This document shows, in pieces, positions 2,591-64,000 of a stretch of DNA of 64,000 bases. The notes beneath the pieces were generated by a model that saw only the letters and a program-made list of their open reading frames with translations, had not been told where the DNA came from and made no database searches. A program made the translations under genes and the position numbers. The stretch spans positions 48,285,517 to 48,349,516 of the forward strand of contig NC_081357.1 in assembly GCF_030684315.1 (NCBI RefSeq), read 5' to 3'. Numbering within the stretch: the first letter of the stretch is position 1; every line of letters begins with the position of its first letter. Origin of the DNA: Stegostoma tigrinum (taxonomy: Eukaryota).

Positions 2591-2813
2591 CAAGATAGTA
2601 GGAACTGCCGATGCTGGAGAATCCGAGATAACAAGGTGTAGAGCTGGCTGAACACAACAGGCCAAGCAGCAGAGGAGCAGGAAGGCTGATGTTTCGGGTT
2701 GACATCCTTCTTTCCGTGATTTTGAAGAAGGATCCAGACCCAAAATGTCAGTTTTCCTGCTCCTCTGAACACAGCAGGCAAAGCAGCATCATCGAGCTCG
2801 ACACCTTGTTATC
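2591..2813. mobile_element. PLE family P1 foldback mini-element, both HHRs degenerate
   Basis: Inverted arms centred near 2712. Perfect 12-bp TSD taggaatattca at 2579-2590 and 2814-2825. Confidence 0.85.
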
Positions 2814-4877
2814 TAGGAATATTCAAGTGTGTTTTAGGTCCCTTTGTATCATACTGAAATGATTTTAACAAATTGCATGACAAAGGGAATACAATATTTT
2901 TGTCAACTATGTTAGGAAAGTGAATGAGAAACTAATAGCTTAAAAAACTGCAACCAAATGCTGCCTCAACATTAATTACGTTTCATTCTGGTTTCTTCGG
3001 CTGTTGTGACCAAATACTTGAAACGCAAAATATCTACAGCAATTCTATCGCACCAGTCTTTTGTCTCATTGAATGTTTAGCTTGCAATCTATCAACCTTT
3101 CATTCACAATTACCTTGGAATTTTCTTCAACTTTTAATGATTAGCTTCTGCAGAAGCTATCTAAAGAAGGGCATATAAAATCACAGGAACAACCTCTGGG
3201 CATTTTTTTAAAAAAAGAGAGTGGTTTTAAAAAGGAAACCTTATTTTTGTTTAAAAGTCACCTTTCTAATCATCCTTCCTTCCACCCATCCTGGAAAGGC
3301 ACTGACCTACACACTCAGCACAGTTCCAGAGAACCAACTGCCCTCTGATATGCTTGGCTGTGTATGCCACACTTTTACCTTATCCACTTTCAGCGTTCAT
3401 TTCTAGAAATGACAACTGAATAGCAGCTGCTGTATAGTAGCAACCTTGACATATATTCCCTCCCCAACACCAGGCATACCAAGCCTGAATTTGGCGAACG
3501 TCCTTGTCAAACATCTACCTTGCAGATTAAATTGCAACTTTATTCATTACCATTGTTTAAAAACATGCAAACTATTTTTCTACATGTTTTAACTTCTTAG
3601 CTAATCTTTTAGAGTATACTGCATTTCTTGCAAACTAAAAACTTCAAGCATTCACTGTTAGAGAATAATAATGCAAGGTAGCAATGTTGTAACAAAGAAA
3701 TCCAATAGGAGGTAGGGAAAGTGCGCAATAGGAATTTGAAACTCACAGCGAGTGAGCAAAATCAAAACAGCCGAGGTGCACTAAAAGGGGAACTAGACAA
3801 GGCATTTGAGGAAATAAATGGGTGCAATCATACATTTAGCTAGAAAGCATGCAAGGGAGGTTAAGTGTAGCATAAACATTAACCGGTCGCCCGTTTGTCC
3901 CATGTATGCATAGAGCACTTTGGAAAATTAGCTAGACACAACTGCAACTTCAACTCTGTCACCATTTTATCCCCCACTTCAAAGTGAATATTACCCACTA
4001 TAATTCTTAGCATTAATCAACTGGCTTGCTTCCAGGTTTTGTACAACAGTTGAATAAACTTAATATACTGAAAGAAAATTTATAACTTGCAGCCAGTGTT
4101 ACGCAATGGAGAGACATACAGTATTTATAGAGCAGATAGCTGTCAATGATTAGGCCCAAAACACACACCTTTAAAAAATAAGCAACTAATTTGATTTCAT
4201 ATTTCTATATTTTTCAGCACAATTACAAAATGTTAACAATAACCAGATATTGGGAATTAATCTATTTTTATTCTTTGGAACAGGCTATCAGCTATTGAAT
4301 CATACTTCTTAGTATTATTTTGGCTTATAGACAGGGAAGTGAAATGCAGAACACCACCAGTGTTCACAACTGCATCTAACGTCAGTAACTCCCAGTTACT
4401 GCCAAGATCAGCGGTCTCCAACCTGAAGTTCAAGTGTGATCCGGAGGTTAGTGAAACCGAGGATCTACTCCAGGAAAATACACAATACAAGTTTTTTTTT
4501 CCCAGATTTATAAATCTAAAACCAAACAGACATAATTAATCTTTTTTCCTCTGCTTGCCAACCCTCAAATATGACTCAGGCAACTGCACATTATCTGCCA
4601 TTACCTTGAAGTCTCAGTTGTAGCTCAAGGTTGCAAGTGGTGTCCAGTCCAACAAATGGTTTTGACAGGGCAGTGCAATACTTGGGCCTGATAGTCTTCA
4701 TTTGAAGACTGTCTTAAAAAGTTGGAGTCAAAAGGAAACTTTCATTGTAAAAGCACATGATGATAGAAAGGGCTATTTTGCAGTGTTTACATGTCCCCAA
4801 TTAAAAAATGAACCTTGACCTGACTTTTGGCTTAACATAATTATGTATAATTATTAACTGTATCTCAATATTGTTTC

Positions 4878-4953
4878 ATTAACTTGTTCTGACACATGCC
4901 AGCAGGTGAGACTTGAACTGGAGTCTCCTGGCCTTGAGGCAGGGACATTACCA
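4878..4953 (-). mobile_element. Short tRNA-derived SINE fragment
   Basis: Minus strand tggtaatgtccctgcctc..ccaggagactccagttcaagtc..gaacaagttaa. Related copies at about 14770-14848 (+), 14915-15020 (+) and 49335-49440 (-). Confidence 0.55.
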
Positions 4954-6149
4954 ATATATCTTATCTCCATCCAAATCCCCTTTATAAATGGAATTCAACA
5001 GCCACCCCAATGTCAACGTGAAGGAATGTATTTGAAAATTTTTTTTCTTCACATCTAACTCTCACATTGCTTGTTGAATTCCTCTAACATCCATTCTTGT
5101 GTTTAGATGTCTTTGGGTGGTACCATTTTCCTTTTCTTTCCGCTAGCATTTTCTTGACTCAGGAAGTGCTGCACTATTTTTAAAATTATTGTGAGGACCA
5201 CAAACAGTTTCAATTTGAATGCATGCACAACTCTATGCAGATGTGCTAAATCTTTGTCTTTTCTCTACAGTTCACACTTGAGCTTGTTCAGTTTCTTGGG
5301 AAACCAAAGTCAAGCAACAATGCATTACCCAAAAGCTCAATGCACACTTAATTGATTTAAGAAAGTGAATTTCAAGCACTAAATACAAAAATCTTCAAAA
5401 CCTTACCTAACCTTAACCCTCACATCTGCATGGAAGATTCATTAATCATAGGAAATATCTATAACTTTACTCATTAATGCTTTCTGATCGATTAGACTAA
5501 GGTAATTGACAGAAGGAGAGAAATCAGGAGCCTTACTGCAAAACACATCAAAAACAAATGCACTTGCACCAACCATGGCTGGTGCACTATCAACTGTGGT
5601 GGAAACAAGTTTCTCCACTGGTTTTTCTCAAGCACATTTTGAATTCTTTGCAGAGATCCTCACCTTTTAGGGTGCAAAAGGGTGAGAAAATCCTAAGTTA
5701 TGTCCTTAAAAAGCACTCCTGCAAAAACGGTTGGACTACTTCAGTCACTTTGATGGATTCACTGAACTGCAGTAAGCAGCATTCAGTGTGCTTCAGGCCC
5801 TGTTGCAGTTGTTGCATGTTGTTGTATGCTGTTTTAGGACAAAGATTCCACTCATCTTGCTACTGTTGACCATAAACTGCAGAAAGTTGTGTTCACAGCC
5901 CAGACTATCAAAGCCAAACTTTCAACCACGGACTCTATTTATAACTCTCGTTGCAGAAAAGTTGCCAAAACCATCGAAGACCATAGCCCGCCGCCCACCC
6001 CACAAACTCTGGTATGTTCCACTATAACTCCTGAGGCAGAAGATACAGAAGCTTGAACACATGCACCAACAGGTTCAAGAACAGGTTCTTCCCTTAATAC
6101 GCTGCTGAATAGATTCTCAAGATCAACATTATTTGAAGTTAATGTCATT

Positions 6150-6415
6150 CACCTCCTGTGTAGTGTCACCTGTATGCCTCACTAAGCACCTTATGATCTG
6201 AATGAGATCGTAAGAACTGCCGATGTTGGAGTCCTAGATAACAGTGTGGAGCTAGAGGAGCACAACAGGCCAGGCAGCATTAGAGGAGCAGGAAAGTGGA
6301 TGTTTCGGGTCAGGGCCTTTGACCTGAATGTCCTTGCTTACTACGATCCACCTGTGCTGCTCGCAAACAAAGCTTTCACTGTACTTAGGTACATGTGAGT
6401 GCAATAAAGCAAATA
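6150..6415 (+). mobile_element. Rex1/Babar-like LINE 3' end, interrupted by a P1 insert
   Basis: 3' tail caaacaaagctttcactgtacttaggtacatgtga..caataaagcaaat, typical of Rex1-type elements. Confidence 0.5.
6205..6319 (-). mobile_element. PLE P1 monomer, 5' end inside the HHR core
   Basis: Homologous to 61411-61534. TSD tgatctgaatg (6194-6204) / tgacctgaatg (6320-6330), 1 mismatch. Confidence 0.75.
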
Positions 6416-7524
6416 TTTGACAGGAGGAAGAATTTGAGAGCAATTGTAAACACCAAAAGGAAAATGTGGTTAAACTGAGGATACAGGAATGAAATCCACA
6501 ATGACAATGCTCACAAAAAAATACAAACATAGTGAGCAGGCAAAGGAATCTTAAGAGGCTGATGCAAGGCATGAGGCCAGCTGTGGCGCAAGAAAACATT
6601 GGTAACTGGAATGGACATGATTGCAGTGCTTCATCTCCAGACTACGGCAGTAAGATCACACTTGTCAGTTTCCAGGCTAATCACAGACGGTCGATGGGAT
6701 GTTGCAGAACACCCATCATAGATTTAATGAATTAATTGAAGGGACTTCAGCAGGGGTCTGAATGGCTGAATAGCTTCTTGGTCCTTCAACAGTACAGGGA
6801 TGGAAAGCTCTGTCTGATGCTTTGGGGTCCTACTGCAGTGATTTGAAGAACAAAAAGTAAAGTGACGCGTGTCAAGGACTGAAGGCAGAACCAAACCCCT
6901 CAAATGAAATCAGGCGTGGATGGAAGTGAGCTGCATGAAGCTTGGTCTCTCAGACTGGGAAATAGCATCCCAAGATGTTCAATAAGATCAACAAGGCATG
7001 ACAGGCAAAAGGTACAGCACTTCATGTGCCATGTCAAGCATGACAGCAGTAGCCTCACACCAAGATGGAGAGAACCCAATTCGGTTCCCTCTTATAATGT
7101 ATCCAAGCTACAGATGATGCATTCTCACAGTGTGATAATGTGACTCTAATACTTGCCAAACACCTGCAATGACCATGAAAGCCTCAGTTAATCATCTATT
7201 GATGATTTTAGTTGCTTACCTGACTGCTCCATGGTTGTTCCCTGCCCACTTGCATGGTAACCTTCCGAAGTGGGCAGAAAACAGGCACTTTTCAGGGCTT
7301 CCAACACCCATGCCCATGCTGGCCTCCATTCCTTCCATTCCCCAACTTTGCAGCTAAATCATTGTTAGGGTGTCTGAAAAATTGTATTTCTTGCATATCA
7401 CAAGAGTTTGAGACAATGGAATCCATTCACGAATTTCAGTGGAGTGAAATACCAAATTCGCTTGAATCATTAGTTAGTGATCTCACTTACTATTTGAGCA
7501 ATCTACCATAAGATGAGGAAGGCC

Positions 7525-7770
7525 ATTTGATAAAATGATAAAACAATTTCTTCATTCATAGTGGTGAGCTTGTGGAATTCTCTACCACAGAAAGCAATCG
7601 AGGCCAAAACAGCAAATATTTGAGAAGTCAGACATAGCCCTTCGGCCAAAAGGGGTCAAAGGAAGAAAGCAGGATCAGGATACAGAATTGGATGATCAGC
7701 CACAATCCTATTGAATGGTGGAGCAGGCACAAGCAACGAATGGCCTACTCCTGTTCCTATTTTCTATGAC
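7525..7770 (+). mobile_element. CR1/HER1 LINE 3' end
   Basis: aatttcttcattca..gtggtgagcttgtggaattctctaccacag..gatgatcagccacaatcctattgaatggtggagcaggc..gaatggcctactcctgttcctatttt, the same tail type as 46476-46560 (reverse). Confidence 0.8.
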
Positions 7771-9380: not shown

Positions 9381-9490
9381 TAGATGCTGGAGAATCTGAG
9401 ATAACAAGGTGTAGAGCTGGATGAACACAGCAGGCCAAGCAGCAGCAAAGGAGCAGGAAAGCTGACATTTTGGGTCAAGACCCTTCAGAA
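9381..9490 (-). mobile_element. PLE P1 monomer with degenerate HHR (3-nt core deletion)
   Basis: agatgctggagaatctgagataacaagg..gctgacattttgggtcaagacccttcagaa, homologous to the other P1 copies. Confidence 0.8.
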
Positions 9491-9501
9491 AGGATTAGGC
9501 A

Positions 9502-9925
9502 TGGATGTGAGTTTGCTCGCTGAGCTGGAAGGTTAGTTTTCAGACGTTTCGTCACCATTCTAGGTAACATCATCAGTGAGCCTCTGACGAAGCGCTGGTG
9601 TTATGTCCCGCTTTCTATTTATCTGGTTAGGTTTCCTTGGGTTGGTGATGTCATTTCCTGTTCTTTTTCTCAGGGGATGGTAGATTGGCTCCAAATCTGT
9701 GTTGGATCTACCATCCCCTGAGAAAAAGAACAGGAAATGACATCACCAACCCAAGGAAACCTAACCAGATAAATAGAAAGCGGGACATAACACCAGCGCT
9801 TCATCGAAGGCTCACTGATGTTACCTAGAATGGTGATGAAACGTCTGAAAACTAACCTTCCAGCTCAGCGAGCAAACACACACCCAGAACCTCAACCTGA
9901 GCTACAAATCTTCTCAAAACTCGCT
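9502..9925. mobile_element. PLE family P2 foldback element
   Basis: Near-perfect inverted arms 9502-9685 and 9706-9886, a 20-nt spacer and a ~39-nt tail on the right arm only. TSD aggattaggca(tg) 9491-9503 / aggattcggca(tg) 9926-9938. Confidence 0.9.
9540..9579 (-). ncRNA. Minimal type-I hammerhead ribozyme motif, intact core (P2)
   Basis: Minus strand tca-CTGATGA-t-GTTACC-tagaat-GGTGAC-GAAAC-GTC-tga: complete core, 6-bp stem II (one G-U), 3-bp stem I (UCA/UGA), palindromic ACGU stem III, GUC cleavage triplet. Activity is not shown. Confidence 0.8.
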
Positions 9926-11066: not shown

Positions 11067-11325
11067 CCAGCTCTGAAGTCTGCCACTGGCCAAAATGGAC
11101 GAATAATGCAATATTGACAAATTGAAAGAAGCCAGGTTCACTGACCTGCTTGGCTTGCTACACTTGGCCTGTTGTGTTCAACCAGCTCTGCACAGTGTTA
11201 TCTCAGGTTCACTGACCACCTTGTTTAACCTAGGTGACAACAAAATTGTTCCCATGTTACTTCAGTGTCCACCTGAAGGTGGCAACAGAAGCCAAATCAA
11301 AAGACAGAAGGCAGCTTTGAGCATA
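11067..11325. repeat. Unclassified dispersed repeat, copy A (carries a P1 insert at 11147-11203)
   Basis: Collinear, same-orientation homolog of 56883-57208. The first 34 nt are identical (ccagctctgaagtctgccactggccaaaatggac). Confidence 0.9.
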
Positions 11326-11459
11326 TTTTGGGTGTTCAGGAGGGGTGCCTGGAGCTCCTTGCCTTGCCTGGCTTGAAAGTGTGAACAGATTCAGAAAGCC
11401 TCAATTAATTTATAAAAGGTAACTGAACATGTGCCTCAAATGCCTTAACCCGCTGAGTG

Positions 11460-12790
11460 GAAACAAAAAAAAAGAGATCACAGCGGGTCAGATAGCATCC
11501 ATAGAGAGCAAACTAACAGTCGAGTCTAGATGAGTCTTCTTTAGGGCTGAAGTGAAGTGTGAGAACAGTGATTTGTCTAACTTCCAGAAAAGACTGCCCA
11601 GCTGGGGTGGGGCAAGGGGAGAAAGGGTACGTTACATTCTCTATCACCAATGAAAGCTAAAGAAAGGCAAGGAATGGGTTCACAAGTTGCAGGCGTTGAA
11701 CTCAATATTGATCCCAGAAGGTTATAACGTGCCTCATCTCAGGAGATGTTGCTCCTCCAGTTTGGACTGTGATTCACTGGAGCTTTGCAGCATGCTGAGG
11801 TCAGACAAGTGGGCATGCGAGCAGGTCGCTATGTTAAAACAACCAGCTACAGGAAGGTCAGGGTCATGCTTGTGCACAGACCATAAGCAGTCACCCACTG
11901 TGTTTGGTACACAAGATTGGAGAGGTACAGGTGAAATGCTGCTTCACTGGAAAGACTGTTTAGGCCGGTGGACGACAAGCTGGGAGGTGATGGGCAGGTG
12001 TTGCACCTTCTGCTGTTAGATAGAAAGGTGCAAGGGGAAAGGGTGAGGGCAGTGGGGTTTGTGGTCAAGGAATGGACTAGGGTGTCCCAGAAGGAATGAG
12101 CCCTGCAAAAGGGAAATGGGGTAGTAAGGGGAGATAGTGTTTGGTGGTGGCATTTTGGGGTTGTCTGAAATGGGAGAGGATGATCCTTGGAATGTAGAGG
12201 CTGGTGGGATGAACAAGTGAGAACAAGGAGGACCCAATCACATTGTTGAGAATGATGGGAAGGGGCAAGGGTGGAAGCACGGGTATTAGGTCGAATGCAG
12301 GTGAGGGCCCTGTCAACCAGAGTGGGTGCGAAACCACAGTTATGGAAGGAGGAATCCAGGTCAGCAGCACAGTTTTGGAAGGTGGCATCATCTGAACAGA
12401 TGCAACATAGGCTAAGCGAGTGGGAGAATGGAATGGAGTCCTTGCAGGCCACGGGATATGAAGAGCTGTAGTGAAGGTAGCTATGGGAGTCAGTAACTTT
12501 GACTTGGATGGCAGTGGACAGATTATTCCCTAAAATTGCAACAGAAAGTCAAGGAAAGGAAGGGGTGATGTGAAAGTTATAGAGGGATGGGAATTGGAGA
12601 CAAAATGAACAATTGTTCTAGGTGCAAGTGGGAGCATGAAGTGACAGTGAAACAGCCTACTTACCAAAAGCTGTGGGAAGGGGCCAGTGTAGGAGAGAAC
12701 AAGGATTGTTCAACATACCCCATAGAGAGGCAGGCATAACTAGGACCCATGTGGATGCCCATAGCCACTCCTTTGCCTTGAGAGAAGTCG
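11460..12790 (-). mobile_element. Decayed Penelope-like retroelement P4 (RT, thumb and GIY-YIG relics plus 3' terminal repeat)
   Basis: Minus-strand frames give VAMGIHMGPSYACL (RT motif B, about 12725-12770), CKDSIPFS..CICSDDATF..VDRAL, HPTSLYIPRIILSHFRQ, the SRRCNTCP Cys knuckle, FTCTSPILC/SNLVY near the GIY region and KLEEQHL. Frameshifted. A degenerate HHR-like stretch lies at about 11515-11545. Confidence 0.85.
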
Positions 12791-15614: not shown

Positions 15615-16540
15615 CCTGGTCCACTGTTTATCATTTATATAAAAGTGAGTTGGAGGAGAATATAGGAAGCATGGTTAGTAAGTTTGAGGAAGTAGGTGGT
15701 GTAGCGGACAGTGACAAAATTATTTCAGGGTACAACAGGACCTTGATTAGTTAGATCAACGTGTCAAGGAGTAGCTGGAGTTTCATTTAGATAAATGTGA
15801 GTTGGTGTATGTGGTAAGGCTCTGGGAAGTGGCGTTGAACAGACACCTGCGGTGCAGGTACATCGTTCCTTTAACGTTGCATCACAGGTAGACAGGGTGG
15901 TGAAGGTGGCATTTTCTGTAGTTGCCTTCATTGGTCAGTGCGTGGAGTACAGGAGTTGGGATGTCACGCTGTGGCTATACAGAACATTGGCGACACCACT
16001 TTTGAAGTTCTATATACAGTTCTGGTCACTCTGCCTTTGAAAGGACTTTATTAAATTGGAGAGGGTTCAGAAAAAATTCACAAGGATTTACTGGGACGGG
16101 AGGGTTGGAGTTACAAGGAGAGATTGTATAGGCTGGGACTTTTTGACCCTTTGCAGTGTGGATTGAGGGGTAAACTTAGAGGTTTCTAAAATCAAAAAAA
16201 AAAGGGGCATAGGTAAGGTGAACAACAAAAGGTATTTTCCATAGAGTAGGGGAATTCAAAACTAAGGTGAGGGGAAAGATTTAAAAAGGGCGGGGGGGGG
16301 GGGGGGGGGGGCAGCAACTTTTCCACCGAAGGTGGTGATTATATGGAACAAGCCGCCAGAGGAAAATAGTAGAAGAAGTAGTACAGTTACAACATTTCAA
16401 AAGCCATTTGGGCAGGTACTTGACTACAAAATGTTTAGAGGGATTTGGGCCAAACACAGGCAAATAGGACTAGTTTGCTTTGGGAAACCTGGTCAGCTTG
16501 AATGATTTGGACGAAAAGATCCGTATGGCTCTGACTGTCT
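15615..16540 (+). mobile_element. CR1/HER1 LINE, 5'-truncated (C-terminal RT and 3' UTR)
   Basis: ORF 15852-16040 QVDRVVKVAFSVVAFIGQCVEYRSWDVTLWLYRTL..QFWS, with 3' tail gtatggctctgactgtct. Confidence 0.85.
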
Positions 16541-24168: not shown

Positions 24169-24369
<201 letters not shown>

Positions 24370-34439: not shown

Positions 34440-35480
34440 AACAGCTAAATTGCAACCCATTCTACAAATTTGTGGTGTTGCATATCCCCCTATGTACTGG
34501 TCCTACCAAGGCAGGGGTTCAACCCTGGTTCAAAGGAGTGTGCAGGAGGACATGCCAGGAGCATACCAGGCACACCTAAAAAATGTGGTGGCAACCTGGT
34601 GAAGCTACCAGTGATAATGGGAACTGCAGATGCTGGAGAATCCAACTATTTGCATGCCAAACAAACAGCATAAGCAGCAAGTGACAGATAGAATTAGGTG
34701 ATTAATTTAAGCAACCAAGTCATCAACTCTTGCCTCTGCAGCCCTGCTACATCCAGTCATGAATGGTGGTGGACAATTAACACACTGTTGAATGAGGCTT
34801 CAAAAACATGCCCATTCTCAATAATGGCATAGCCCAGCACATCAGAGCAAAAGACAAGACTGAAGCACCTGTGACAATTTTTAGCCAACGACACCCATCA
34901 TCACAGATTGCAGTCTTCAGCCAATTCTGTCCACAAGATATCAAGGGGCAGCTGGAGGCAATGGATACTGCAAATGCTATGGACTTTGACAACATTATAG
35001 TCATGATAGCGAGGACTTACACTCCAGAACTTGCCGCTACCCAAAGCTGTTCCAGTAGGGTTACAACACTAGCATCTCTGGCCCAGGTATCTCCTCTACA
35101 CAAACAGCAACACATCTAACCTGCCCAGGTACAACCCCATCAGTTTACTTCAAACATCAGTAAAGTGATGGAAGATGTCATCAACAGTGCTATCAAACAG
35201 CGCCAACTCGGTAATAACCTGCTCAGCTCCTGATCTCACTACAGCCTTCGTTCTAACATGGGCAAAAGATCTGAATTTCAGAGGTGTCTAGGGGATGTTT
35301 ATCCTTAGCACCTTAACAGAATATGGCAAGGAGGAGTTCCAGCAAGACCAAAAATCAGTGGTAAATCGAGCAGGGGAGGAAGCAGCCTCCACAGGTTGGA
35401 GACATACCCTGGCAAATAGGTAGACGGTTGCTGTTGTTGTAGATTAGTTGCCTCAGCTAAAGGACATCTCTGCAGCTTGT
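34440..35480 (+). mobile_element. LINE family B internal (RT-region) fragment
   Basis: Relics of the AMGxDNI, YxPISLL, KVME and ALxxIWxxGV segments; gaatggtggtggacaattaa. Confidence 0.65.
34611..34645 (-). mobile_element. P1 solo tail (~35 bp)
   Basis: gtgataatgggaactgcagatgctggagaatccaa is nearly identical to 47508-47542, the segment present on only one arm of the foldback. Confidence 0.75.
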
Positions 35481-36149
35481 TATGGTAGTGTCCTTTCTTC
35501 CCTTCAGCTTCTTCTAACTCTCCTGAATTAAAGTGCTCACCCAAAGCTAAGCTGCTGCTAACCAAAACAAAAACAATGCTCAAAATGCAGGTCTACCAGC
35601 ACCTGGCTGATGACTGTTCTGTTTTTTCCAGAAGCACTGAGTCCTGGCAGCGTTACTAACTTGAAATGTTACCTCTTCCACTTTCCACAGATTCTGCCAG
35701 ACCTGCTGAGAATTTCCAACATTTTGTTTTTTTTATATTCTTGCTTCCGATGTTGTTGAATGTCTACTGAAGTTTTCATTTTGGTGTTTTATCTAACGTG
35801 GCATCCAGAAAAGCTGCAAGCCACACTCCTACGTACCAAATTATTGGCTGATTATTCATGCAATAGAAGGAAGTGATAGCTAGTTTTGGCAGATCCTCTA
35901 AATGTCTGGTATGATTTAAATTATGTTGCAGTTACAATATCCTGCAGTATTTTTATACTTTATATTTTATGGTTATAGACTTTAACAAATGTTATCATGG
36001 ATTTCCCAGTCTTTTGTCAACTGTAATCATCCAAAACTTCGCACAAAGATCAAAAGAAAAATCCAAATAGAAATTTTATTCTTGATGGTAATTCCAGGAT
36101 ACTGGAACTTGGAACAACCAATTTCAGCTTCTGGATTTATAGTAAAATT

Positions 36150-39609: not shown

Positions 39610-40345
39610 TTAATGGTGGAGCCCAGGGAATATTGCCAAAGTGATCCAGCAGTGCAGGTGTATCGTCCCTTGAAAGTGGAGTCACAAGGAGACAGGGTGG
39701 TGAAAGTGATGCTTGGTATGCTTGCCATTATTGATCAGTACATAGAGTATAGAAATTGGGACATCACACTGCGGTTGTACAGAACATTGGTGAGCCCACT
39801 TTTAGCATACCGTGTACAATTCTGGTCCTCTTCCCATTGGAAGGCTGTTGTTGAACTTGGAAGGGTTCAGAATAGATTGACAAGATGTTGTCAGGACTGG
39901 AGCGTTCAAGTTACAGGGAGAGGCAAAATAGGCTGGGACTTTCTCCCCCAGGAGCGTCAGAGGCTGAGAGGTGACCTTACAGAGGTTTACAATATCACGA
40001 GTGGTGTGGATAGGCTGAATGACCCAAGACAATTTTGCTTGAATAGCCAAGTCTAAAACTAGAGGGCATAAGCTTAAGGCGAGAGGGGAAAGATCTGAAA
40101 AAGGACCTGAGGGGTAACATCTTAAAGAAGGCAGTGTGCGTACGGAATGAAGTGCCACAGGAAGTGGTGGAGATGGGTACAATTACAACACCTCTAGCGT
40201 CTTGATGTGTATATGGGTATATGAATAAGAAGGGTTTAGAGGGATACGGACCAAATGCTGGCAAACACTAGTTCAGATACAGATGTCTGGTCAGCATGGA
40301 TGAATTGGGCCAGTCTGTTTCCACGCTGTATGACTGACTCTACAA
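39610..40345 (+). mobile_element. CR1/HER1 LINE, 5'-truncated
   Basis: ORF 39565-40056 DRVVKVMLGMLAIIDQYIEYRNWDITLRLYRTLVSPLLAYRVQFWS..RQRLRGDLTEVY; tail ctgtttccacgctgtatgactgactcta. Confidence 0.85.
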
Positions 40346-43604: not shown

Positions 43605-43872
43605 GAGGTGCTGGGGAAAGATTTAAAAGGAATCCAAGGGGCAATATTTTCATGCAGACAGTGGAGAGTGTACGGAATGAGCTGCCAGAGGAAGTGTTAG
43701 AGGCAGATACAAATCACAACATTTAAAAAAGGCATCTGGACAGGTACAATCAATAAAAGATGATTGCCAGATATGACCACTGGAAGTAGCTGAGACCAGC
43801 TCAAGCTCAGAAACCTGGTTGGCATTGACAAGTTATGCCGAAGGGTCTGTTTCCCATGCTGTTGGACTCTGA
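43605..43872 (+). mobile_element. CR1/HER1 LINE 3' end
   Basis: ggggaaagatttaaaagg..ggaatgagctgccagaggaagtg..gccgaagggtctgtttcccatgctg. Confidence 0.8.
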
Positions 43873-47506: not shown

Positions 47507-47817
47507 AGCGATAATGGGAACTGCAGATGCTGGAGAATCCAAGATAATAAAATGTGAGGCTGGATGAACACAGCAGGCCAAGCAGCATCTCAGGAGCACA
47601 AAAGCTGACGTTTCAGGCCTAGACCCATCAGAGAGGGGGATGGGGTGAGGGTTCTTTTCTCTCCATCTTCGGTCTGCCTCCCCCTCTCTCCCTATTTATT
47701 CCAGTTCCCTCCCCCCATCCCCCTCTCTGATGAAGGGTCTAGGCCCGAAACGTCAGCTTTTGTGCTCCCAAGATGCTGCTTGGCCTGCTGTGGTCATCCA
47801 GCCTCACATTTTATTAT
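47507..47817. mobile_element. PLE P1 foldback element inserted in the CR1 RT
   Basis: Inverted arms. 17-bp TSD cctgttaatcactactc (47490-47506) / cctgtttatcactactc (47818-47834), 1 mismatch. ~35-nt tail on the left arm only. Confidence 0.92.
47725..47756 (+). ncRNA. Minimal type-I hammerhead ribozyme motif, intact core (P1)
   Basis: ct-CTGATGA-a-GGGT-ctag-GCCC-GAAAC-GTC-ag: complete core, 4-5 bp stem II, ACGU palindrome at stem III, only a 2-bp stem I. Activity is not shown. Confidence 0.75.
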
Positions 47818-49929
47818 CCTGTTTATCACTACTCTTTGTTTCCTGCCAGCCAGCCAATTTTCAGTCCAACTCAGTATTTTGCCCCCAACACCATGTGACC
47901 TAACTTTGCTCACTAATCCCCTATGTGGGACTTTATCAAAGGCTTTCTCAAAGTCCAGGTACACCACATCCACTGGCTCTCCCTTATCCATCTTCATTGT
48001 TACATCGTCAAAAAATTCCAGAAGATTAGTCAAACACTCTTTCCCCTTCATAAATCCATGCTGACTGACATATCCTGTTACTGCTATCCAAATGACTCGT
48101 AATTTCATCTTTTATAATTGACTCCAGCATCTTTCCCACCAGACATCAGGCTAACCGGTCTATAATTCAGTTTTCTCTCTCACCCCTTTCTTGAAAAGTG
48201 GGACAAGATTAGCCACCCTCCAATCTGCGGGAACTGATCCTGAATCTATAGAACATTGGAAAATGATTACCAATACGCCCACCATTTCTAGAGCCATCTC
48301 CTTAAGGACCATGGAATGCAGACCATCAGGTCCTGGGAACTTATCAGCCTTCAGGCTGAACAGCCTAACATTTCCTGCCTAATCTAAATTCCCTTCAGTT
48401 CATCCACTACTGTAGGTCCTTCAGCCACTATTATATCTGGGAGATTGTATCTGTCTTCCCTAGTGAAGACAGATACAAACTACCCATTCAACTCTTCTGC
48501 CATTTCCTTGTTCCCCATAATAAATTTACCCGTTTGTGTCTTCAAGGGCCCAATTTTAGTCTTAACCATTTTTCTTTTCACATACCTAAAAAAATCTTAT
48601 TATCCTCCTTTATATTTTTGGCCAGTTTGCCTTCGTACTTCATTTTTTATCCACGTACTGCCTTTTTAGTTATCTTCTGTTGCTCTTTAAAAGTTTCCCA
48701 GCCCTCCGGTTTCCCGCTCATGATGACCAAGAGTAGACTAATAGGGTGGTAATTAGCCCAGCTAGATTTGCCTTGCATTTCTTTTTGTACACAGGACATA
48801 TCTGGCCAATTCTCCACAATGTCAGATAGTTAATAGCAATGCAGCTTTACTAGAACAGCTTGTTTAAGGAGTTCAGAAAATGGAGAGGCAGTATGATTGC
48901 TGCAGTGTTGTCCGAGTCCACAGCCTTTGGCAGTATCCAGTGCTTCCAATCATTTCTTGACGTTCAAGTCATTCCATGTAATTTGAAGACTGGCATCCGT
49001 GCTGTTGGGGACTACTGGAAGATAAGAGTTGGATCATCCACTTAGTTTTTCTCACTGAAGATTGTTACAAATGCTTCAGTACTGAACTACTGGCCTCCTA
49101 ACTGCTGGTAAAGCTTCGAAATACTGAGTTTGAGCTGCTGCAACTGATAACACATCCTACATAGTTATACAGAACACAGGAAAGAGATTTGAATCTGTGT
49201 TCCAGAACATTTAACCAGCTCTGAATTAACACACGCAATAATACCAGCAGGTCACCATGTCCCTGAAAGTCTGTCCATTTTTTTTGTTTACAAAAAACGA
49301 CCCACCAGCTGGGATTGCTTTTTACATTTTATGGTCAACCTGTTCACGGATCTTATGATAATGCCTATGGAGAAGGTGGAACTTGAAACTGGGATGCCTG
49401 GCTCAGGAGGTACAGACTCTATCACTGTACCACAGAGCTCACAGGATCTACTTTTTAAAAAAATTCCTTTAGAGGGTCTACTTTGTTAAAAAAAAACATG
49501 CTCAGGTGAGGAGTTCCACATGAACAGACCATGGGGAAGGGAACTCGTAGTCAATGGGATTCACTGGGAGATCATTTAGTATTTCCCCATACAGCTTATT
49601 GGGTTTACCACACTAGTAAATCTGGCTACCGTTAATAAAGCTCCACTTTTGTCTCATGAGAAATGCTTTGCCTGTGGAAAAACAATACTTACCGTAGCAA
49701 TGAATAGGAAAATAATGCAAATAGGCTTCATCTGTGAAAACAGGTTTACCAGTTTTAAAGATCAAAGGAAAAACAAATACTGCACAAAATCCATTGTTGG
49801 AGAAATTAATTGAAGATAGTGTTGAATCCATAACTTCTAAACATAGCAACACATAGGCAAATGTCAACTCATCAGAAAGTCATTGCTCATGTGACAATAC
49901 AGTGGGCTTTCAGAAGTGTTTTGTCCAGC

Positions 49930-51049: not shown

Positions 51050-51528
51050 AAAGATTTACAAGGATGTTGTCAGCACTAGAAGAGATCGAGTTCTAGCAGA
51101 GGCTGATTACACTGGGGCTACTCTCCCTGGAGCGTCGGAAGTTGCAGGTGACCTCACAGAGGGTTTATAACAAGTCACGAGGGGCACAGATGGGGTGAAC
51201 AGCCACGATCTTTTTCCCTGGGTAGCAGAGACCAAAAATGCAGGGCATAGGTTTAAGGCAAGAAGGGAAAGATTTAAAAAGGGACCTGAGGGGCAACCTT
51301 TCCATGCAGAGGGTAGTGTGTTTATGGAACTAGTTGCCAGCAGAAGTGGAGGAGGCCAGCACAATTACAACACTTCAAAGGCATCTGGATGGGTACATGA
51401 ATAGGGTGAGTTTAGAGGGAAATGGATCAAGTGCTGGCAAATGGGACAAGGTCAGATCAGGATGTTGGGTCAGTGTGGACAAGTTAGACCAAAGGGTCCA
51501 TTCCTATGCTGTATGAACTATGACTCTA
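51050..51528 (+). mobile_element. CR1/HER1 LINE 3' fragment
   Basis: tccctggagcgtcggaagttgcaggtgacctcacagagg..gggcataggtttaagg..ctgtatgaactatgactcta. Confidence 0.85.
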
Positions 51529-53445: not shown

Positions 53446-53586
53446 GGAAATAGCAAGAACCGCAGATGCTGAGTCAAAGTCAATACTGAATGGAGCTGGA
53501 GGAACACAGAAAAGGAGCAGGAAAGTCAATGTATCAGGTCTGGACCCTTCATCAGGTCTGAAGGAGGATCCAGGCCCGAGATCAGC
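53446..53586. mobile_element. Decayed P1-related foldback with head-to-head HHR cores
   Basis: ..ggtctggacccttcatcag-gt-ctgaaggaggatccaggcccga..; the two cores are 2 nt apart. Confidence 0.6.
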
Positions 53587-54235
53587 GTTACGGTCTAGTA
53601 AGCTTATGGCAATTCTATCTTTACTTTAACAAGTGCAGGCAGCAGGATAAATGCTTAAAACGATTGGCAGTAATGTGGGAGATTTAGTTACAGACTGGCA
53701 ACAGGCAGTATACACAAAATGAGTTGCGTCCAGAAACAAGTAGCTGGTTGACAACCGATCACCATTTCCAGGCTAATGACAAAGGCCTTCTGCCTATCAA
53801 AAATTATGATTAACTCCCTGCTGGCTGAATAATTTGTGGGTGAGAATGTTTGGCCAGAATAGAAGGAGCAGTTTTTCCTGCTCCATGGTTTAGAAAAATT
53901 AATTCCAAAGAAAACCAGTTTTCTACAGTCACTAAGCTAATGACTTTTAACCAATATCTCAGACTTTCTAAGTGTGAGCCAGTTGCTCCATGCCTCCTGC
54001 AAGCCAGTGAATGCACTAGAGATGAAAGGTTGGAGGAGCAGCAAGTCCATCAAGCCAAACAAGTTCTCAGCAAACAGTGGACAGGGACCATTAAAGCTTC
54101 TTTCCCAGTCTTGCCCTTTGCCCGTACCATTCATGTCTTTAGTTTTATCGTCTCGTCTCTTTTTGCATTTGAGAAGAGGATCTTTTATAAAAGGTGTTAA
54201 AAGTTTGAAGGTGTAGTTCACATCAGCAATTCAGA

Positions 54236-54321
54236 GCTTGAGTTCTGAGGAAGGGTCACCGGACCCGAAATGTTTTCTCCTCCACAGATGCTGCCAGACC
54301 TGTGAGCAACTTTGTTTTTGT
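54236..54321 (+). mobile_element. PLE family P3 monomer with near-intact HHR
   Basis: agtt-CTGAGGA-a-GGGTC-accg-GACCC-GAAAt-GTT at 54241-54274. Perfect 11-bp TSD agcaattcaga (54225-54235, 54322-54332). A decayed relative lies near 35640-35735. Confidence 0.8.
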
Positions 54322-56229: not shown

Positions 56230-56379
56230 CGTGGTCTGCGAAATACAAGTCCATAATTCTGACAAGCCAGGCCGACTGTGGGTGTATAAACAATGGGCAT
56301 GAACCTCTCAATGTCTGAAGTCAGTGCTCTGTAGAAGAGCTTTTCATTTCGGTCTTGAAGGGCACTTAGAAATATGTAC
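56230..56379 (-). CDS. ME1: Malic enzyme coding exon (equivalent to ME1 exon 3, 150 bp)
   Basis: Minus strand: ttttaAG|G TAC ATA TTT...AGA CCA CG|GTAAGT. Translates (R)[49 protein letters not shown](R), including the catalytic Tyr motif PIVYTPTVG. Length and phase 2-2 match vertebrate ME1/ME3 exon structure. Not captured by the ORF track. Confidence 0.95.
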
Positions 56380-56882: not shown

Positions 56883-57208
56883 CCAGCTCTGAAGTCTGCC
56901 ACTGGCCAAAATGGACAAATAAAGCAACATTGACACATTGAAAAAAAGCCAGGTTCACTGGCCAGTGATAACAGGAACTGCAGATGCTGGAAAATCGAGA
57001 TAACAAAGTGTGGAGCGAGATGAACACAGCAGACCAAGCAGCATCTCAGGAGCACAAAAGCTGACATTTCGGGCCTAGACTCTTCGTCAGTTCACTGACC
57101 ACCTTGTTCAAACTTGACTGACAATAAAATTGTTGCAATGTTACTTCAGTGCCCATCTGAAGTTGGCAACAGAAACCAAACAAAAGACAGAAGGCAGATT
57201 TCAGCATA
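56883..57208. repeat. Unclassified dispersed repeat, copy B (carries a P1 insert at 56965-57089)
   Basis: Homolog of 11067-11325. TSD gttcactggcca (56953-56964) / gttcactgacca (57090-57101). Confidence 0.9.
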
Positions 57209-58315: not shown

Positions 58316-58349
58316 TAGTTCCAGCATAACCTTAATACTTTAAAAGGTC

Positions 58350-58885: not shown

Positions 58886-59339
58886 GTCAAGAAGATCAAC
58901 AGATAAAGACTTCACTTTTAAACTTCAAGTCTCAAAGAAACCATCCAAGATCTTTAAACAGTCACTTTTCATAGTGGACTGTTTGGGCTTGAATTCAAAT
59001 CTCTGTTCAATTATCATAAAAGCTTTGTCTTCTAGTTTCAGTGGCTATTACTTCATGAAACTATTACTTCATAGCAAGGAACAAAGAATGGGGAAGTCGG
59101 AGAGAAGACTGCCATTTCTTTAAAGGGAAGTTTATAGGTGCAAGGAACGGATAGTGAGCTTCAAACCTAGTAGGAAGGTGATGAACCTGACTTTACAGAA
59201 TTCCTTTTAAAACATTAGCATCTCCCAAACTGATTCAAGCAAGTATTAAAGTAACTTACAGATACTATGAATTCAGAATCCAGGGAACAGATAGAAAAAT
59301 AATTTCTACACATGCTTAATAATTCATTAGAAACTGTGT

Positions 59340-60640
59340 CACTTCCAAGGACTGGGATTAGCTAACACAATACCTATATTCAGGAAGTGGGACAGAATAT
59401 GCTCAGAGAATAATCAAAGCAGATAAATAACACTCCTGTAAAGTGTCTTTGGACATTTTACTGCATTAAAAGGCACTGAGTAAATAGTTACAATACTTGA
59501 AATTAATATTTATACTAGGTTCTTGTTAGAAGCAGCAGTGATAGGAATCAATGAAATCCCCACAAAAAACAGAACATAAAAGACCCCATTTAGAAACCTA
59601 AAATGTAATTATGAATACTTAGGTTGGAACTCCGAACAGAAAATGTTGTTTGACCAATTCTATTGACTCTTTGGATGGTCGTAACAGAGACCTGATAACA
59701 GTAACACAGATGTCATTCATCTGAGCTTTCAAAAATAAAATCTAACAATAAAAGGGTGTCTCAGGGCAGACTGATGAACATGGAGTCAAAGAAACAAATT
59801 GCAGAATGTATTGTTAGTTGACCTCTAAGTAGGAATCAAAGAATGAGACGAAAGAGCAGTTATTCGGTTACTCAGAGTCATGTTCCACAAGGATCAGTGC
59901 TGGGACTACTGTTGCTCACAACTCTGGTGTTTTAAACTTGGGAATCAAAAACAAATTCTACATTTGAGAATTACATTGAACTTGGGAAGATTGTCTTCCT
60001 TGGTATAGTCTAACTATAGAAAGACATGAATAAGCTTGCAGAATGGAAAAACAAGGCAAATGATAAATGTGCTAGTACAATTTGACAGGATAAGGAAGTC
60101 GTTCATTACCTGGACAGTGCAAGTCCAGGTGGGGTGGAGGCACAAGGGATCTCAGAGTATACATGCATCAAAGTTATGCTGCTGTTTAACACGGCCACAA
60201 AAACAAAGCAACCTAGCATTAGATTTTTTCTGAAAGGATAAGGGAGAAAAGTTAAAGCTGCACCGAACTTTGGTTAGGCCACAGTTAAAGAGTACTGCCT
60301 GCCAACTAGTTGCCATATTATAAAATTGCATTCAAGGGGATGCAGAAGATATTCAAGGTTTTTTTTTAAATTTGAAAATGTATAGGCATACATCCAGGAA
60401 GGCAGAGTCTTGGGTCTCTTAACCAATTCAATGTCTTTAAATTTATGAAAGGTTTTGATGGATAAGAGAAAACATTTCCTCTTGTGGGGAGGATCATAGC
60501 TAAAAGCAGTCGGTACAAATTCAAGTAATCCAAATGGGGAAATTCCACTACAGGGACTAAGTTGATGGAAACAGAATAGATGACACAGACACACTTAATT
60601 GAAGCTGAGAAGACACTCAAAGTTGAGTATATAGAGATCA
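59340..60640 (+). mobile_element. Old CR1 LINE RT relic
   Basis: gctaacacaatacctatattcaggaag (ANxxPIFKK), gttccacaaggatcagtgctggga (VPQGSVLG), ttggttaggccacagttaaagagtactg (LVRPxLEYC). Confidence 0.7.
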
Positions 60641-61410
60641 GCACAAAAATTTGCTAAAAAATTTACTCTAATGGTGATCATGTAGCCATGGTCAGTTGTC
60701 AAACACACATCTGGTTTATGAATGTCCTTTAGGGAAAGAAAATCATCACCCGATTTGGCCTATATGACTCCAGACTCTCAATGTGATCGAGTCTTAACCA
60801 TACCCTAAAATGGTCTCAAGTCAAGCAGTTCAAAGGCAAATGAGAGGGATGGGCAACACTCATCCCATGAAGAAAACAGAATTAGATTTAGCAAAGCGAA
60901 TCAGTTTTACTATACTTAAATTTGTCAAGCCATTCTTACCGGTCAAGGTCATCTTTTCTCATTTCATAGTTTTTCAGCACCTGAAGAACCTGCACATTCT
61001 GGTCAAGAACACAAGGGGGCAGAAGACCATGGATACCTAGTTGTTGTCTCTCTTCCAATGTAAAGGCCAAGCCCTAAAAAAAAGGAAATGAAATGGCAGG
61101 TTATATGGGTTGCTCAGTCTTGCCACCTTATACAGAGGCCAAACCCCTGATCAACAAGCTGGAAAGCTTCCCAAAATGACACTGGCGCAGTGAAGGTCCG
61201 ATCGGGTTAAACACATGGTTTCTCTAACAGACCTGTGCGCTCTCATCCTCAGCATCTCCCCGATTGGGTGTCTCAGACTTTTCAGCCTTAAAATGTAGTC
61301 AGTGAGGTTTAAAAAAAAATTAGTAAGCACAATTGTAAGTATACCTACCATATAGAAAATGTATACCACATATGAGAAAGTGAGGTGGAAACATGCCCCA
61401 AAAGATTTCT

Positions 61411-61534
61411 GAGATAATGGGAACTGCAGATGCTGGAGATTCCAAGATAATAAAATGTGAGGCTGGATGAACACAGCAGGCCAAGCAGCATCTCAGGAGC
61501 ACAAAAGCTGACGTTTCGGGCCTAGACCCTTCAT
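61411..61534 (-). mobile_element. Young PLE P1 monomer (124 bp) headed by an HHR lacking only C3
   Basis: Perfect 12-bp TSD caaaagatttct (61399-61410, 61535-61546). Minus strand tTGATGAAGGGTCTAGGCCCGAAACGTCAGC; nearly identical to the 47507 arms. Confidence 0.92.
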
Positions 61535-61859
61535 CAAAAGATTTCTAACAAGTTTTAAAATCACAGGAATTATTCAAGGAATTTGCTCTACAAGTTTCTC
61601 ACTTCTAAACATTTCAATTTTGACAACTGATTAAATGTCAGTCATCTATCAATCATTGTCACATATTTTGTTACTTTCCAGTGTGTATTGTGTCACATAA
61701 ATACTGCATACATTTTCCAGCTTTGAGTTTGCAATGAATGCAAGCATTGCATTTAAAGAGGGAGGAAGCAATTTGCCTAATTTCAATGGAAAATACCTAA
61801 TAACAGAAATTTATTTTATCTTTTGAAGTTATTATACTAGCTGATTACAATTTGGAGGA

Positions 61860-62600
61860 AAAGCATGGGCCCAGACAACCATGCCTGTCAAAAACAAATC
61901 TATAAGAGCCTCATATGCCTTAGCATTACACGTAAACACTTCAGTGTTATGAGGGGGTCAGCCTTGACCAGCCACACAAGGAGAGAGTTCCAGTTTCCCA
62001 ACAGCCTCTATTTGAAAGACAATTTTCTCTTCATCGTCTCAGTCTTCAGACACTTACCTGAAATCTGTGTCCCCTGGCCTTTGATCCCTCCAAGCAGAAA
62101 AGGTTGTTTTGCTTTATCAATATCCCTTGATTTTATACAAGGCAAACACATTTCCTTTCTAATAACATAATTCAGACAAATTACAGCCAGCAGTGCCAGT
62201 AAAATCTTTTTGAATTTTTAGTTTAAAAAGTGCTAGAAATTGCCAGCTGATGTCCCTCAGGTCGCTTCAAAATATTTCCCCTCTCAATTTAAACCTATGC
62301 CCTCTAGTTCTGGACTCCCCTATCCTAGGAAAAGGGCCCTGTCTTTGCCCCTCATGAACTTGTAAAATCTCAGTCACCCCTCAGCTGCTGGGAGGGTAGT
62401 CCCAGCCTCCTCTTGTAATTCACTTCTTCCAGTCTCGGTAACACGCTTGTAAACTTTTTTTCTGCACCCTTTTCAGTTTGATAACACCCTTCCTAAAAGC
62501 AGGACGGCCAGAATTGTATGCAGGGCTCCAGATTTTGCCTTACCAATGCCTTTTACAGCTGTTACATGACATCCTAACTCAATGCTCTTACCAATGAAGC
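61860..62600 (-). mobile_element. Two CR1 LINE fragments
   Basis: gagagttccagtttccca..(61860-62150); ttaaacctatgccctctagttctggactcccc..ccagaattgtatgcag (62260-62600). Confidence 0.7.
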
Positions 62601-62799
62601 TAACTTATTGAATTATAATAAAACTAAATCAAGATTTAAATTTACACAGATGCCATTGGGGTGTGATTAGCTTATTTGGGATGTACAATGTCATCACAAA
62701 AAAAAAGTCCCACCTTATCAACCTCACCCCTCGCCTGAGGAGCAGAGATCCTAAAATTCTTAAAAGGCAAGCCCAAATAGATAAAAACCAAAAGAATAC

Positions 62800-62894
62800 T
62801 GTAGGTTAGATGGGCTTGAGATCGGTATGACAGGTCAGCACAACATCGAGGGCCGAAGGGCCTGTACTGTGCTGTAATGTTCTATGTTCTATGT
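62800..62894 (+). mobile_element. CR1/HER1 3' tail
   Basis: gcacaacatcgagggccgaagggcctgtactgtgctgtaatgttctatgttctatgtt. Confidence 0.85.
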
Positions 62895-63961
62895 TAAACT
62901 CACCACCAGCAGACGGTCTGAAATGAGAGAGCAGCCCTACTGGGAGGCTATTATGACTTCACCTTTATCTAGATCAGAATACTTCTAACAATCCAGATGC
63001 ATGTAAGTTAGTCAATTCCATCTCTATAAAAAAAACTTCCAAAATTACATCCTGGCTTTCACACACCAAATCCTAGCTGTTTTCTCCTTTAATATTTTCA
63101 TCAGTATATCATTTTTCTTCTACTGCATTTTTTTTCACTGCATGTCAGCATGTCCTATTGTATAATCCCATATCTCTTCCCACCACCAGGAACAACTAAA
63201 TCTTTTATTTGAAAAATGTACCAGAATTCAGTTGAATTCTTGCCAGAGTGCAAATTCCAGCATTTGACCTCAAAGGGAATGAAGCTGACATTTTCTAAGT
63301 TTAAGAACATGATCAAGAAGCAAGACTTCATATACATAAAAAGGAGACATAAAATGAAAGAGAGAGACTTTTAAGGGGGGAGAAAAAGAAAAACCCAGCT
63401 GATGCAGTAAACCTGCTCCAACCTTGATGCAACTGAAGCATGACTTCCTGTACTCCAGCTGTCTACCCTGAGGATTGCATAACTGCTCGAGAGCACTAAC
63501 TTTAAATTTCTTCAATAATGGGATAAGGAAAACACTGAATCTAGAGGACCAAAGGACAAGCTGTATTCAGATATTGACTAAAATGTGCAGTAACTGAAGT
63601 GTCAAGCAGAAATTCAACTGTGCTGATGACTTGGAGGCAGACACTGTTGCTTGTGTGGGCAGTAGCAGAGTAAATTCTGAAGTTGGATTTAAGCTGCTAA
63701 TCCTGCAAATACAAACTGGCTTTGCTTTTTGCATGGATTTGGCAATACACATTTTAAACTAAAACATCAAATTATCTCTTTTGCTAACCTGGTGAATACA
63801 CCACAAGCTGAACCTTGAAGGCATAATCTTCAACTATGAAGGTAAAGCAATTCATATTTACTTGTCAATATCACAAGCAAGCAATCAGCAATGCAAAAGG
63901 TTAGCAAATGCCCCATGGAAAGTTAAATAATAGGTTTGTGACAAGTTATCAGAAGAACCCC

Positions 63962-64000
63962 AATTCTGAGAAAGGGTCACTAGGCCCAAAACGTTAACTG
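63962..64000 (+). mobile_element. PLE P3 degenerate HHR at the window edge
   Basis: aatt-CTGAGAA-a-GGGTC-acta-GGCCC-AAAAC-GTT-aact, with two core G>A changes relative to the 54245 copy. Confidence 0.65.

What the first reader, a model, noticed from the sequence alone, without database searches (positions are those of the whole stretch)
2591..64000. Multi-family system of hammerhead-ribozyme-bearing, non-autonomous Penelope-like mini-elements in ME1 introns
Seen: about a dozen non-coding insertions of 35-425 bp (2591, 6205, 9381, 9502, 11147, 34611, 47507, 53446, 54236, 56965, 61411, 63962) from at least three families. Most retain all or part of CTGANGA-N-[hairpin]-GAAACGTY; 11147 and 34611 carry only downstream sequence. 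Stem II differs completely between P1 (GGGT/GCCC) and P2 (GTTACC/GGTGAC) yet stays paired, which is covariation support for a hammerhead. Eight have 11-17 bp TSDs, so they are discrete insertions. Known: PLE pseudo-LTRs carry minimal type-I HHRs with a palindromic stem III, proposed to act as dimers. Inferred: these are ribozyme-headed SINE/MITE-like passengers of PLE machinery (a coding relic sits at 11460-12790), at roughly one per 5 kb. I cannot say whether these particular families are already catalogued.
Basis: partly seen in the sequence, partly recalled or inferred. Interest (0 to 1): 0.8.

Follow-up and report, generated by a model that had tools for sequence, protein, structure and literature searches.

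The report
Dead-end Penelope fragments carrying hammerheads
These short inserts are the tail ends of ordinary protein-coding Penelope-like jumping genes that occur all over this genome, likely dead-end copies rather than a separate mobile family, and about a third stop sharply just before the built-in ribozyme motif, likely where the element's capped RNA begins.

Summary
The inserts are real (8 of 12 tested have 11-17 bp TSDs), but they are not a separate SINE/MITE system, and nothing ties them to the malic enzyme gene. Each family is the 3' end of a coding Penelope-like element (PLE) elsewhere in the genome: P1 and P3 Neptune-type, P2 Poseidon-type. The 61411 copy is 100% identical to the end of an intact 1084-aa RT+GIY-YIG element. 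Density in the window (about 2.0 per 10 kb) matches 1.2 Mb of evenly spaced sample (2.36). Only 2 of 17 arms keep an intact hammerhead core, both predicted to be buried in long hairpins. The lengths are not a smooth truncation tail: 119 of 350 P1/P3 arms start within -10..+4 of the core, replicated in two samples. An extra G often precedes young-family starts there, which fits run-off at a capped RNA start; my pre-set broad test of that G failed, narrower tests passed. Short and long copies share subfamily variants. Isolated and inverted PLE hammerheads are published (PMC4209133, PMC3846280). This scan reported the same reading on other pieces of this genome.

The parts
2591..2814 (.). Two-armed (head-to-head) P1b insertion; left arm with tail, right arm decayed; no intact core
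   Evidence: 12-bp TSD
6204..6320 (-). Single P1b arm with tail, core decayed
   Evidence: 11-bp TSD
9383..9486 (-). Single P1b arm (+5..+108 from core start), core decayed, no TSD found
9502..9925 (.). Two-armed P2 (Poseidon-type) insertion; left arm has the only intact core in the host gene's sense, predicted inside a long hairpin; tail on the right arm only
   Evidence: 13-bp TSD
11147..11210 (+). Short P1b arm downstream of the ribozyme, no tail
   Evidence: 14-bp TSD
11460..12790 (-). Decayed coding PLE relic of a separate older family with a degenerate hammerhead at its 3' end
   Evidence: tblastn 39% over 199 aa, E 7.6e-30
34613..34645 (-). P1a tail only (+92..+124)
35663..35734 (+).
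47510..47821 (.). Two-armed P1a insertion (-20..+124 with tail; -75..+94 without); right arm has an intact core, predicted inside a long hairpin
   Evidence: 17-bp TSD
53446..53590 (.). Decayed two-armed P1b insertion, no TSD found
54241..54319 (+). Single P3 arm starting 4 nt before the core; internal deletion removes the cleavage region
   Evidence: 13-bp TSD
56967..57090 (-). Single P1 arm (0..+124) with tail, core mutated
   Evidence: 12-bp TSD
61411..61536 (-). Single P1a arm (+1..+126), 100% identical to the 3' end of the intact element in L023; lacks the first core base
   Evidence: 14-bp TSD
63961..64000 (+). P3-type arm starting 5 nt before the core; runs past the window end
56232..56375 (-). 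Host exon, NADP-type malic enzyme (context only)
24180..24335 (-). Second malic enzyme exon, approximate bounds (context only)
   Evidence: motif scan

Best explanation
The inserts are the 3' terminal repeats of protein-coding Penelope-like retrotransposons of this genome, likely dead-end reverse-transcription products of the autonomous element's own RNA and not a self-propagating family. Shown: sequence identity to the ends of RT+GIY-YIG elements; two fixed 3' ends about 35 nt apart (about +91 and +126 from the hammerhead core); two-armed insertions almost always with exactly one tail; a sharp pile-up of 5' ends at -10..+4 in P1a, P1b and P3. Inferred: the endonuclease nicks both strands about 13-15 bp apart; RT starts at one of two internal sites just downstream of the ribozyme, as shown in vitro for the Anolis Poseidon element; when it starts in the upstream copy of the repeat it reaches the capped 5' end of the mRNA after about 95 or 130 nt and either stops (fixed-length short copy, often with a cap-copied G) or jumps template. 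The hammerhead rides along because it is the first thing in the transcript. The short copies lose the RNA downstream of the start site, which the Anolis enzyme needs, so they probably cannot move again.
For: L023 holds a 1084-residue open frame with RT and GIY-YIG motifs and two inverted copies 99.9% identical over 3.7 kb; window copies match its end at 100% (61411), 96% (47507), 87% (56965). P2 ends run upstream into a 645-aa RT+GIY-YIG frame; P3 and P1b into frames 49-65% identical to P1a. 283 insertions in 120 evenly spaced 10-kb stretches, 2.36 per 10 kb, against about 2.0 in the window. 80 of 88 two-armed pairs carry exactly one tail (52 of 59, 28 of 29). 5' ends in -10..+4 / -40..-11 / +5..+34: 76/10/58 of 230 arms, then 43/3/29 of 120 in a second sample; arms often abut each other or a TSD there, so it is not an alignment artefact. 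Stop rate per base 2.9-5.1% at the edge, 0.9-1.2% just downstream, 0.2-1.2% just upstream. Extra G: 1637 genome-wide matches with G before a -2 start against 1015 with A; in the first 100 listed of each, 33 against 4 have T in front (hand count), about 13:1 against a background of 1.35; 7 of 9 single young copies starting at C against 15 of 71 elsewhere; 6 of 7 template-jump junctions restarting at -10..0 have G, 4 not templated by the donor. Within P1a 0 of 14 variant sites separate short from long copies, nearest-neighbour test p=0.22. Core conservation 0.945 against 0.959 for downstream flank.
Against: No RNA data were laid, so the transcript start is not observed. The pre-set broad test of the extra G failed: 4 of 19 at the edge against 17 of 36 elsewhere in the new sample, 11 of 49 against 41 of 117 overall; the passing tests are narrower, limited mostly to P1a, and partly post hoc. 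In copies holding the ORF 5' end, only 13 of 57 upstream repeats start at the edge and 28 run further upstream, so read-through transcripts or template jumps must be added. P2 shows no edge at its hammerhead (2 of 20 arms). Older P1b alleles are over-represented among short copies (e.g. 13 of 51 against 0 of 40 at one site; nearest-neighbour p=0.078), and one P1a haplotype is 6 short to 1 long. Pfam hits for the P1a protein are below gathering cut-offs. The 'cannot move again' step rests on analogy with one Poseidon element.
Confidence: 0.7

Rival explanations
1. The copies are by-products of autonomous PLEs, but the 5' edge is an RT pause or drop-off site set by sequence or ribozyme structure, not the RNA end.
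For: 28 of 41 upstream repeats that reach the edge in ORF-bearing copies pass it; P1 has a C-rich tract just upstream; the broad G test failed.
Against: The edge sits at the same offset in P1a, P1b and P3 although upstream sequence differs; structure-caused stops are expected on entry to a hairpin, not on exit (own knowledge); untemplated G at -4/-2 junctions.
Confidence: 0.15
2. One reading: short ribozyme-headed copies are non-autonomous SINE/MITE-like families that are themselves transcribed and moved by PLE proteins.
For: Fixed 5' edge and two fixed 3' ends give unit lengths of about 95 and 130 bp; short copies dominate older subfamilies; one two-armed junction recurs at 7 loci; non-autonomous PLE derivatives exist elsewhere (PMC8557442 passages; bioRxiv 2026.07.22.740005).
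Against: No private variants within P1a; the recurring junction occurs on different subfamily backgrounds and at a 4-nt microhomology; tail placement follows the insertion rule of long copies; cores decay neutrally; dispersed singles and head-to-head pairs cannot form the same-strand dimer.
Confidence: 0.08
3. The short copies are a plain smooth tail of random 5' truncation with no special ends.
For: Upstream of -40 the stop rate is low and smooth (0.08-0.4% per base), and P2 looks smooth throughout.
Against: Edge excess p=4e-26 against upstream and 2e-8 against downstream, replicated at 1e-17 and 4e-6; present in young P1a copies alone (24 against 3 of 88).
Confidence: 0.03
4. The hammerheads are working host elements that cut or regulate the malic enzyme pre-mRNA.
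For: One intact core (9502 left arm) lies in the gene's sense.
Against: It is predicted to be paired in a hairpin of about 200 bp; density equals genome average; minimal hammerheads did not cleave as monomers in PMC4209133.
Confidence: 0.02

Closest known systems
Minimal hammerheads of metazoan PLEs (Cervera and De la Pena 2014, PMC4209133; read parts 1-2 of 4 of the main text)
   Same: Core with one extra base before stem II, G-C first pair, palindromic remnant of stem III; thousands of single motifs 'probably related to truncated PLEs' and opposite-strand pairs 100-700 bp apart are described there.
   Different: Stem I is only 2-4 bp here; the parts read do not cover sharks or map copy ends.
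Poseidon of Anolis (PAc; Frangieh et al. 2024, PMC11167929; read parts 1-2 of 4)
   Same: Two internal RT start sites that define the tail, both strands nicked, ORF starting at hammerhead stem II (true of P2: ATG at +6), ribozyme not needed for insertion in vitro.
   Different: P1/P3 are Neptune-type with the ORF starting at +166; the paper does not map the RNA 5' end or report fixed-length short products, and found no reads ending at the cleavage site.
Inverted-pLTR insertions with optional tail (Adineta Penelope, PMC3846280 passages; Craig et al. 2021, PMC8557442 passages)
   Same: Head-to-head inverted repeats, 30-40 bp tail on one arm, TSD, partial tandems, solo pLTRs.
   Different: Here at about 750,000 insertions (extrapolated from 1.2 Mb), most reduced to 130 bp or less; TSDs mostly 11-19 bp against 8-10.
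Animal non-LTR retrozymes (PMC7229834 passages; bioRxiv 10.64898/2026.07.22.740005, read parts 1-3 of 5)
   Same: Non-coding, hammerhead-bearing, derived from PLE pLTRs.
   Different: Retrozymes are head-to-tail tandems with a ribozyme per unit; the window copies are singles or head-to-head pairs with mostly broken cores.

Membership tests
EN+ Penelope-like elements | Single ORF with RT and C-terminal GIY-YIG | tested here: met
   L023 1084 aa, L209 645 aa: DKG, YIDD/YVDD and GIY-YIG motifs; Pfam RVT_1 and GIY-YIG hits, only P2's RVT_1 above cut-off
EN+ Penelope-like elements | Partial tandem pLTR and inverted 5'-truncated copy | tested here: met
   L023, L214, L215; 88 two-armed pairs in 1.2 Mb
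EN+ Penelope-like elements | Optional 30-40 bp tail on one end | tested here: met
   3' ends at about +91 and +126; 80 of 88 pairs with one tail
Neptune clade (P1, P3) | [quoted passage not shown] | tested here: met
   CxxxxCxxC at aa 906 of P1a, absent from P2; P3 assigned by 49-64% identity to P1a; no tree built, Nematis not excluded
Penelope/Poseidon clade (P2) | No linker Zn motif; ORF starts at hammerhead stem II as in PAc | tested here: met
   no tree built
Minimal type-I hammerhead | Conserved core, extra base, paired stem II, palindromic stem III remnant | tested here: met
   Met in family references and 50 sample copies; in the window only 2 of 17 arms
Minimal type-I hammerhead | Self-cleavage as dimer or with protein help | not testable with these tools
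   Indirect junction evidence inconclusive
Non-LTR retrozyme | Head-to-tail tandem units each with a complete hammerhead | tested here: not met
   Window copies are singles or head-to-head pairs
SINE/MITE-like non-autonomous family | Own lineage with diagnostic mutations absent from autonomous copies | tested here: not met
   P1a: 0 of 14 sites, p=0.22; P1b confounded by age; P2 and P3 not tested
SINE/MITE-like non-autonomous family | Own transcription from short copies | not testable with these tools
   No raw RNA reads laid
Catalogued Repbase/Dfam families | Match to a named consensus | not testable with these tools
   No such library held

The most novel reading that the evidence does not exclude
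Neptune-type PLEs prime reverse transcription near the 5' end of their own capped mRNA, copy about 95-130 nt through the hammerhead to the cap, and must jump template (cap-copied C pairing with a G) to copy the rest, an analogue of retroviral strong-stop DNA and strand transfer. The hundreds of thousands of short copies would be failed jumps, and rare tandem arrays restarting at +28 would record ribozyme cleavage in the germ line.
Probability: 0.3. Interest if true: 0.65.

Novelty: new member of a known kind. Interest (0 to 1): 0.35.

Why it matters
As a 'new ribozyme-headed SINE system' it does not hold; truncated PLE ends with minimal hammerheads are described. The value lies in the statistics. 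How PLEs make their tandem and inverted ends, where their RNA starts and what the hammerhead is for are open questions (PMC8557442, PMC11167929). A genome with about 750,000 insertions, some from near-identical intact elements, gives base-level predictions (RNA start at -7..-1, two RT starts, staggered double nick, jump at the cap) that one 5' RACE and one in vitro assay could test.

Tried and rejected
Rfam scan: no hammerhead family hit. CTGANGA count alone: chance level. Relic 11460-12790 as partner: different family. Enrichment in the host gene: none. Spliced 5' exon as cause of the edge: TSDs abut the start directly in inspected copies. Broad cap-G test: failed. Sharp peak of 5' ends at the cleavage site (+28): not seen in the samples; 65 of the first 100 pattern matches looked like +28 starts (hand count) but 10 of 17 inspected were joints between inverted arms, 3 indels, 3 go-back joints, 1 single, and none of 22 go-back rows in 2.0 Mb of unselected loci restarts at +28; no position control, so inconclusive. 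Sequencing runs: no RNA holder listed. Contigs of four runs on 60400-62400 showed no empty-site joint; not informative. Loci for an unbiased P2 and P3 length survey were not obtained (searches gave counts only: 13,102 and 12,980 exact matches), so P2 rests on 20 arms. Lunse et al. (PMC5785218) is not held; known only through the review PMC6765202 (passages). PMC12602865 passages: nothing relevant. Searches that found no report of the edge or of shark PLE families: (listings only; subscription journals and Repbase are not covered). bioRxiv supplements of 2026.07.22.740005 were not seen and may list chondrichthyan families.
Full report
Conventions. Positions such as -4 or +126 count from the first C of the hammerhead core (CTGANGA) on the element's sense strand. 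The window is G000:C4:48285517-48349516 in a 3.2-Gb genome; 'shark' is recalled from the look of the repeats and from earlier notes, not from a call.

1. Observation. The twelve inserts are present, plus a P3 relic at 35663. Eight of 12 tested have 11-17 bp TSDs; 11 of 300 random sites give a repeat that long. The motif is mostly broken: 2 of 17 arms keep a full core, and both are predicted to be paired in the long hairpin formed with the opposite arm. CTGANGA alone is at chance and Rfam finds no hammerhead, but the full minimal motif occurs 50 times in 1.2 Mb against 0 in five shuffles. Two malic enzyme exons lie on the minus strand; ME1 versus ME3 is not settled.

2. What the inserts are. 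Searching the genome with the 47507 insert gave copies that continue upstream for kilobases at 98-99.8% identity. L023 holds two inverted copies, 99.9% identical over 3662 bp, each with a 1084-residue open frame bearing RT and GIY-YIG motifs and a linker Cys motif typical of Neptune. The 61411 insert equals its last 126 bases exactly. P1b is an older sister with its own tandem coding copies (L214, 65% protein identity). P2 runs upstream into a 645-aa RT+GIY-YIG frame without the linker motif, and its next frame starts at stem II, as in Anolis Poseidon (PMC11167929). P3 runs into frameshifted frames 49-64% identical to P1a. The relic at 11460-12790 is a further, older family.

3. Not special to this gene. 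In 120 stretches of 10 kb taken at round coordinates on 17 large contigs I counted 283 insertions, 2.36 per 10 kb, against 13 in 64 kb here. Extrapolation gives about 750,000; these families cover about 10% of the first 800 kb. Small contigs were not sampled.

4. Insertion anatomy. 3' ends fall at about +91 or +126 in P1, the 35-nt difference being the PLE tail. Of 88 head-to-head pairs, 80 have exactly one tailed arm. TSDs were found for 43 of 73 young insertions, 35 of them 11-19 bp. This matches the published inverted-pLTR form (PMC3846280, PMC8557442) and the two RT start sites and two-strand nicking shown in vitro (PMC11167929).

5. The unexpected part. 5' ends of P1a, P1b and P3 arms pile up at -10..+4: 76 of 230 against 10 in the 30 bases upstream and 58 in the 30 downstream; in the second sample 43 of 120 against 3 and 29. 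The stop rate is 2.9-5.1% per base at the edge and mostly 0.1-0.4% further upstream. Arms abut each other or a TSD there. P2 shows no such edge (2 of 20). Initiator-like motifs centre on -4 in P1b and P3 (read; consensus recalled).

6. Is the edge the RNA's capped end? For: G precedes a -2 start 1637 times genome-wide, A 1015 times, with palindromic AG joints excluded; the A class is largely point mutants (62 of 100 listed keep the reference C), and the cleanest class, T in front, is 33 against 4 per 100 listed, about 13:1 against a background of 1.35 (hand counts). Seven of 9 single young copies starting at C have G against 15 of 71 elsewhere (p=0.0013, post hoc). Six of 7 junctions where copying resumed at -10..0 after ORF sequence have G, four of them untemplated, two ambiguous (these loci were chosen for holding the ORF 5' region, not for the junction). 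Against: my pre-set test over all families failed (4 of 19 against 17 of 36). Only 13 of 57 ORF-bearing copies start at the edge and 28 go past it, which needs read-through RNA or template jumps and also fits a pause. No RNA reads were laid.

7. Independent family? Within P1a (32 edge, 44 long arms; intermediate arms and P1b-type arms left out) the seven commonest haplotypes occur in both classes, 0 of 14 sites differ at p<0.05, and neighbours are not class-sorted (0.54 against 0.51 +/- 0.05). Pooled with P1b, short copies are older and carry P1b alleles more often; loss or fragmentation of old long copies and my short P1b reference can explain this, but an old short lineage is not excluded. 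Core bases are no better kept than the flank (0.945 against 0.959). The Anolis enzyme needs RNA about 55 nt past its start site (PMC11167929), which short copies lack; by analogy they are dead on arrival.

8. Cleavage. A lead from earlier notes was that some joints restart at the cut site (+28). I saw such joints: tandem arrays of 3-8 units with varying linkers and two ORF-to-+28 joints (L320, L321, L333-L335). They came from a pattern aimed at +28, most other matches were arm joints or indels, and unselected loci gave none. Inconclusive.

9. Verdict. New Neptune- and Poseidon-type PLE families, or ones I cannot check against Repbase, whose short copies are most likely dead-end products. The basic picture is in print (PMC4209133). 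I found no paper on the 5' edge, but this scan has reported it on other pieces of this genome; those notes are not independent support, and my edge result was obtained before reading them. Interest 0.35.

Noticed in passing
window 11067-11325 and 56883-57208: A stretch of about 240 bp occurs twice in the window (86-92% identical; no other copy in 2.0 Mb fetched). Each copy has a PLE insert at the same spot (11147 and 56965), in opposite orientation and of different subfamily type: two hits on one nick site, or one two-armed insert that lost different arms.
   Followed up: partly
L333, L334, L335 (C1): Short tandem arrays of the P1a end whose units restart at the predicted cleavage site, with 0-2 differing linker bases per joint, as if from repeated template jumps.
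   Followed up: partly
L001-L007: The same -20/-75 two-armed joint as at 47507 recurs at seven loci on different subfamily backgrounds, at a 4-nt microhomology.
   Followed up: partly
L023:1068-8883: Two full-length P1a copies head to head, 99.9% identical, with open 1084-aa frames: the family was active very recently.
   Followed up: yes
L306, L278, L281, L129 (listing): Several apparent single-arm copies have a 10-20 nt inverted second arm at the 5' joint, so two-ended insertion may be commoner than counted.
   Followed up: no
P3 references L109, L112; P1a L023: Pyrimidine tract plus AG, like a splice acceptor, 12-26 nt upstream of the core in P1 and P3 and about 50 nt downstream in P3; a few copies start near -20..-27.
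   Followed up: no
window 15846-16464, 39646-40265, 43656-43724, 51190-51441, 62270-62355: Other dispersed repeats, probably CR1-type LINE 3' ends (label recalled).
   Followed up: no
   Followed up: no
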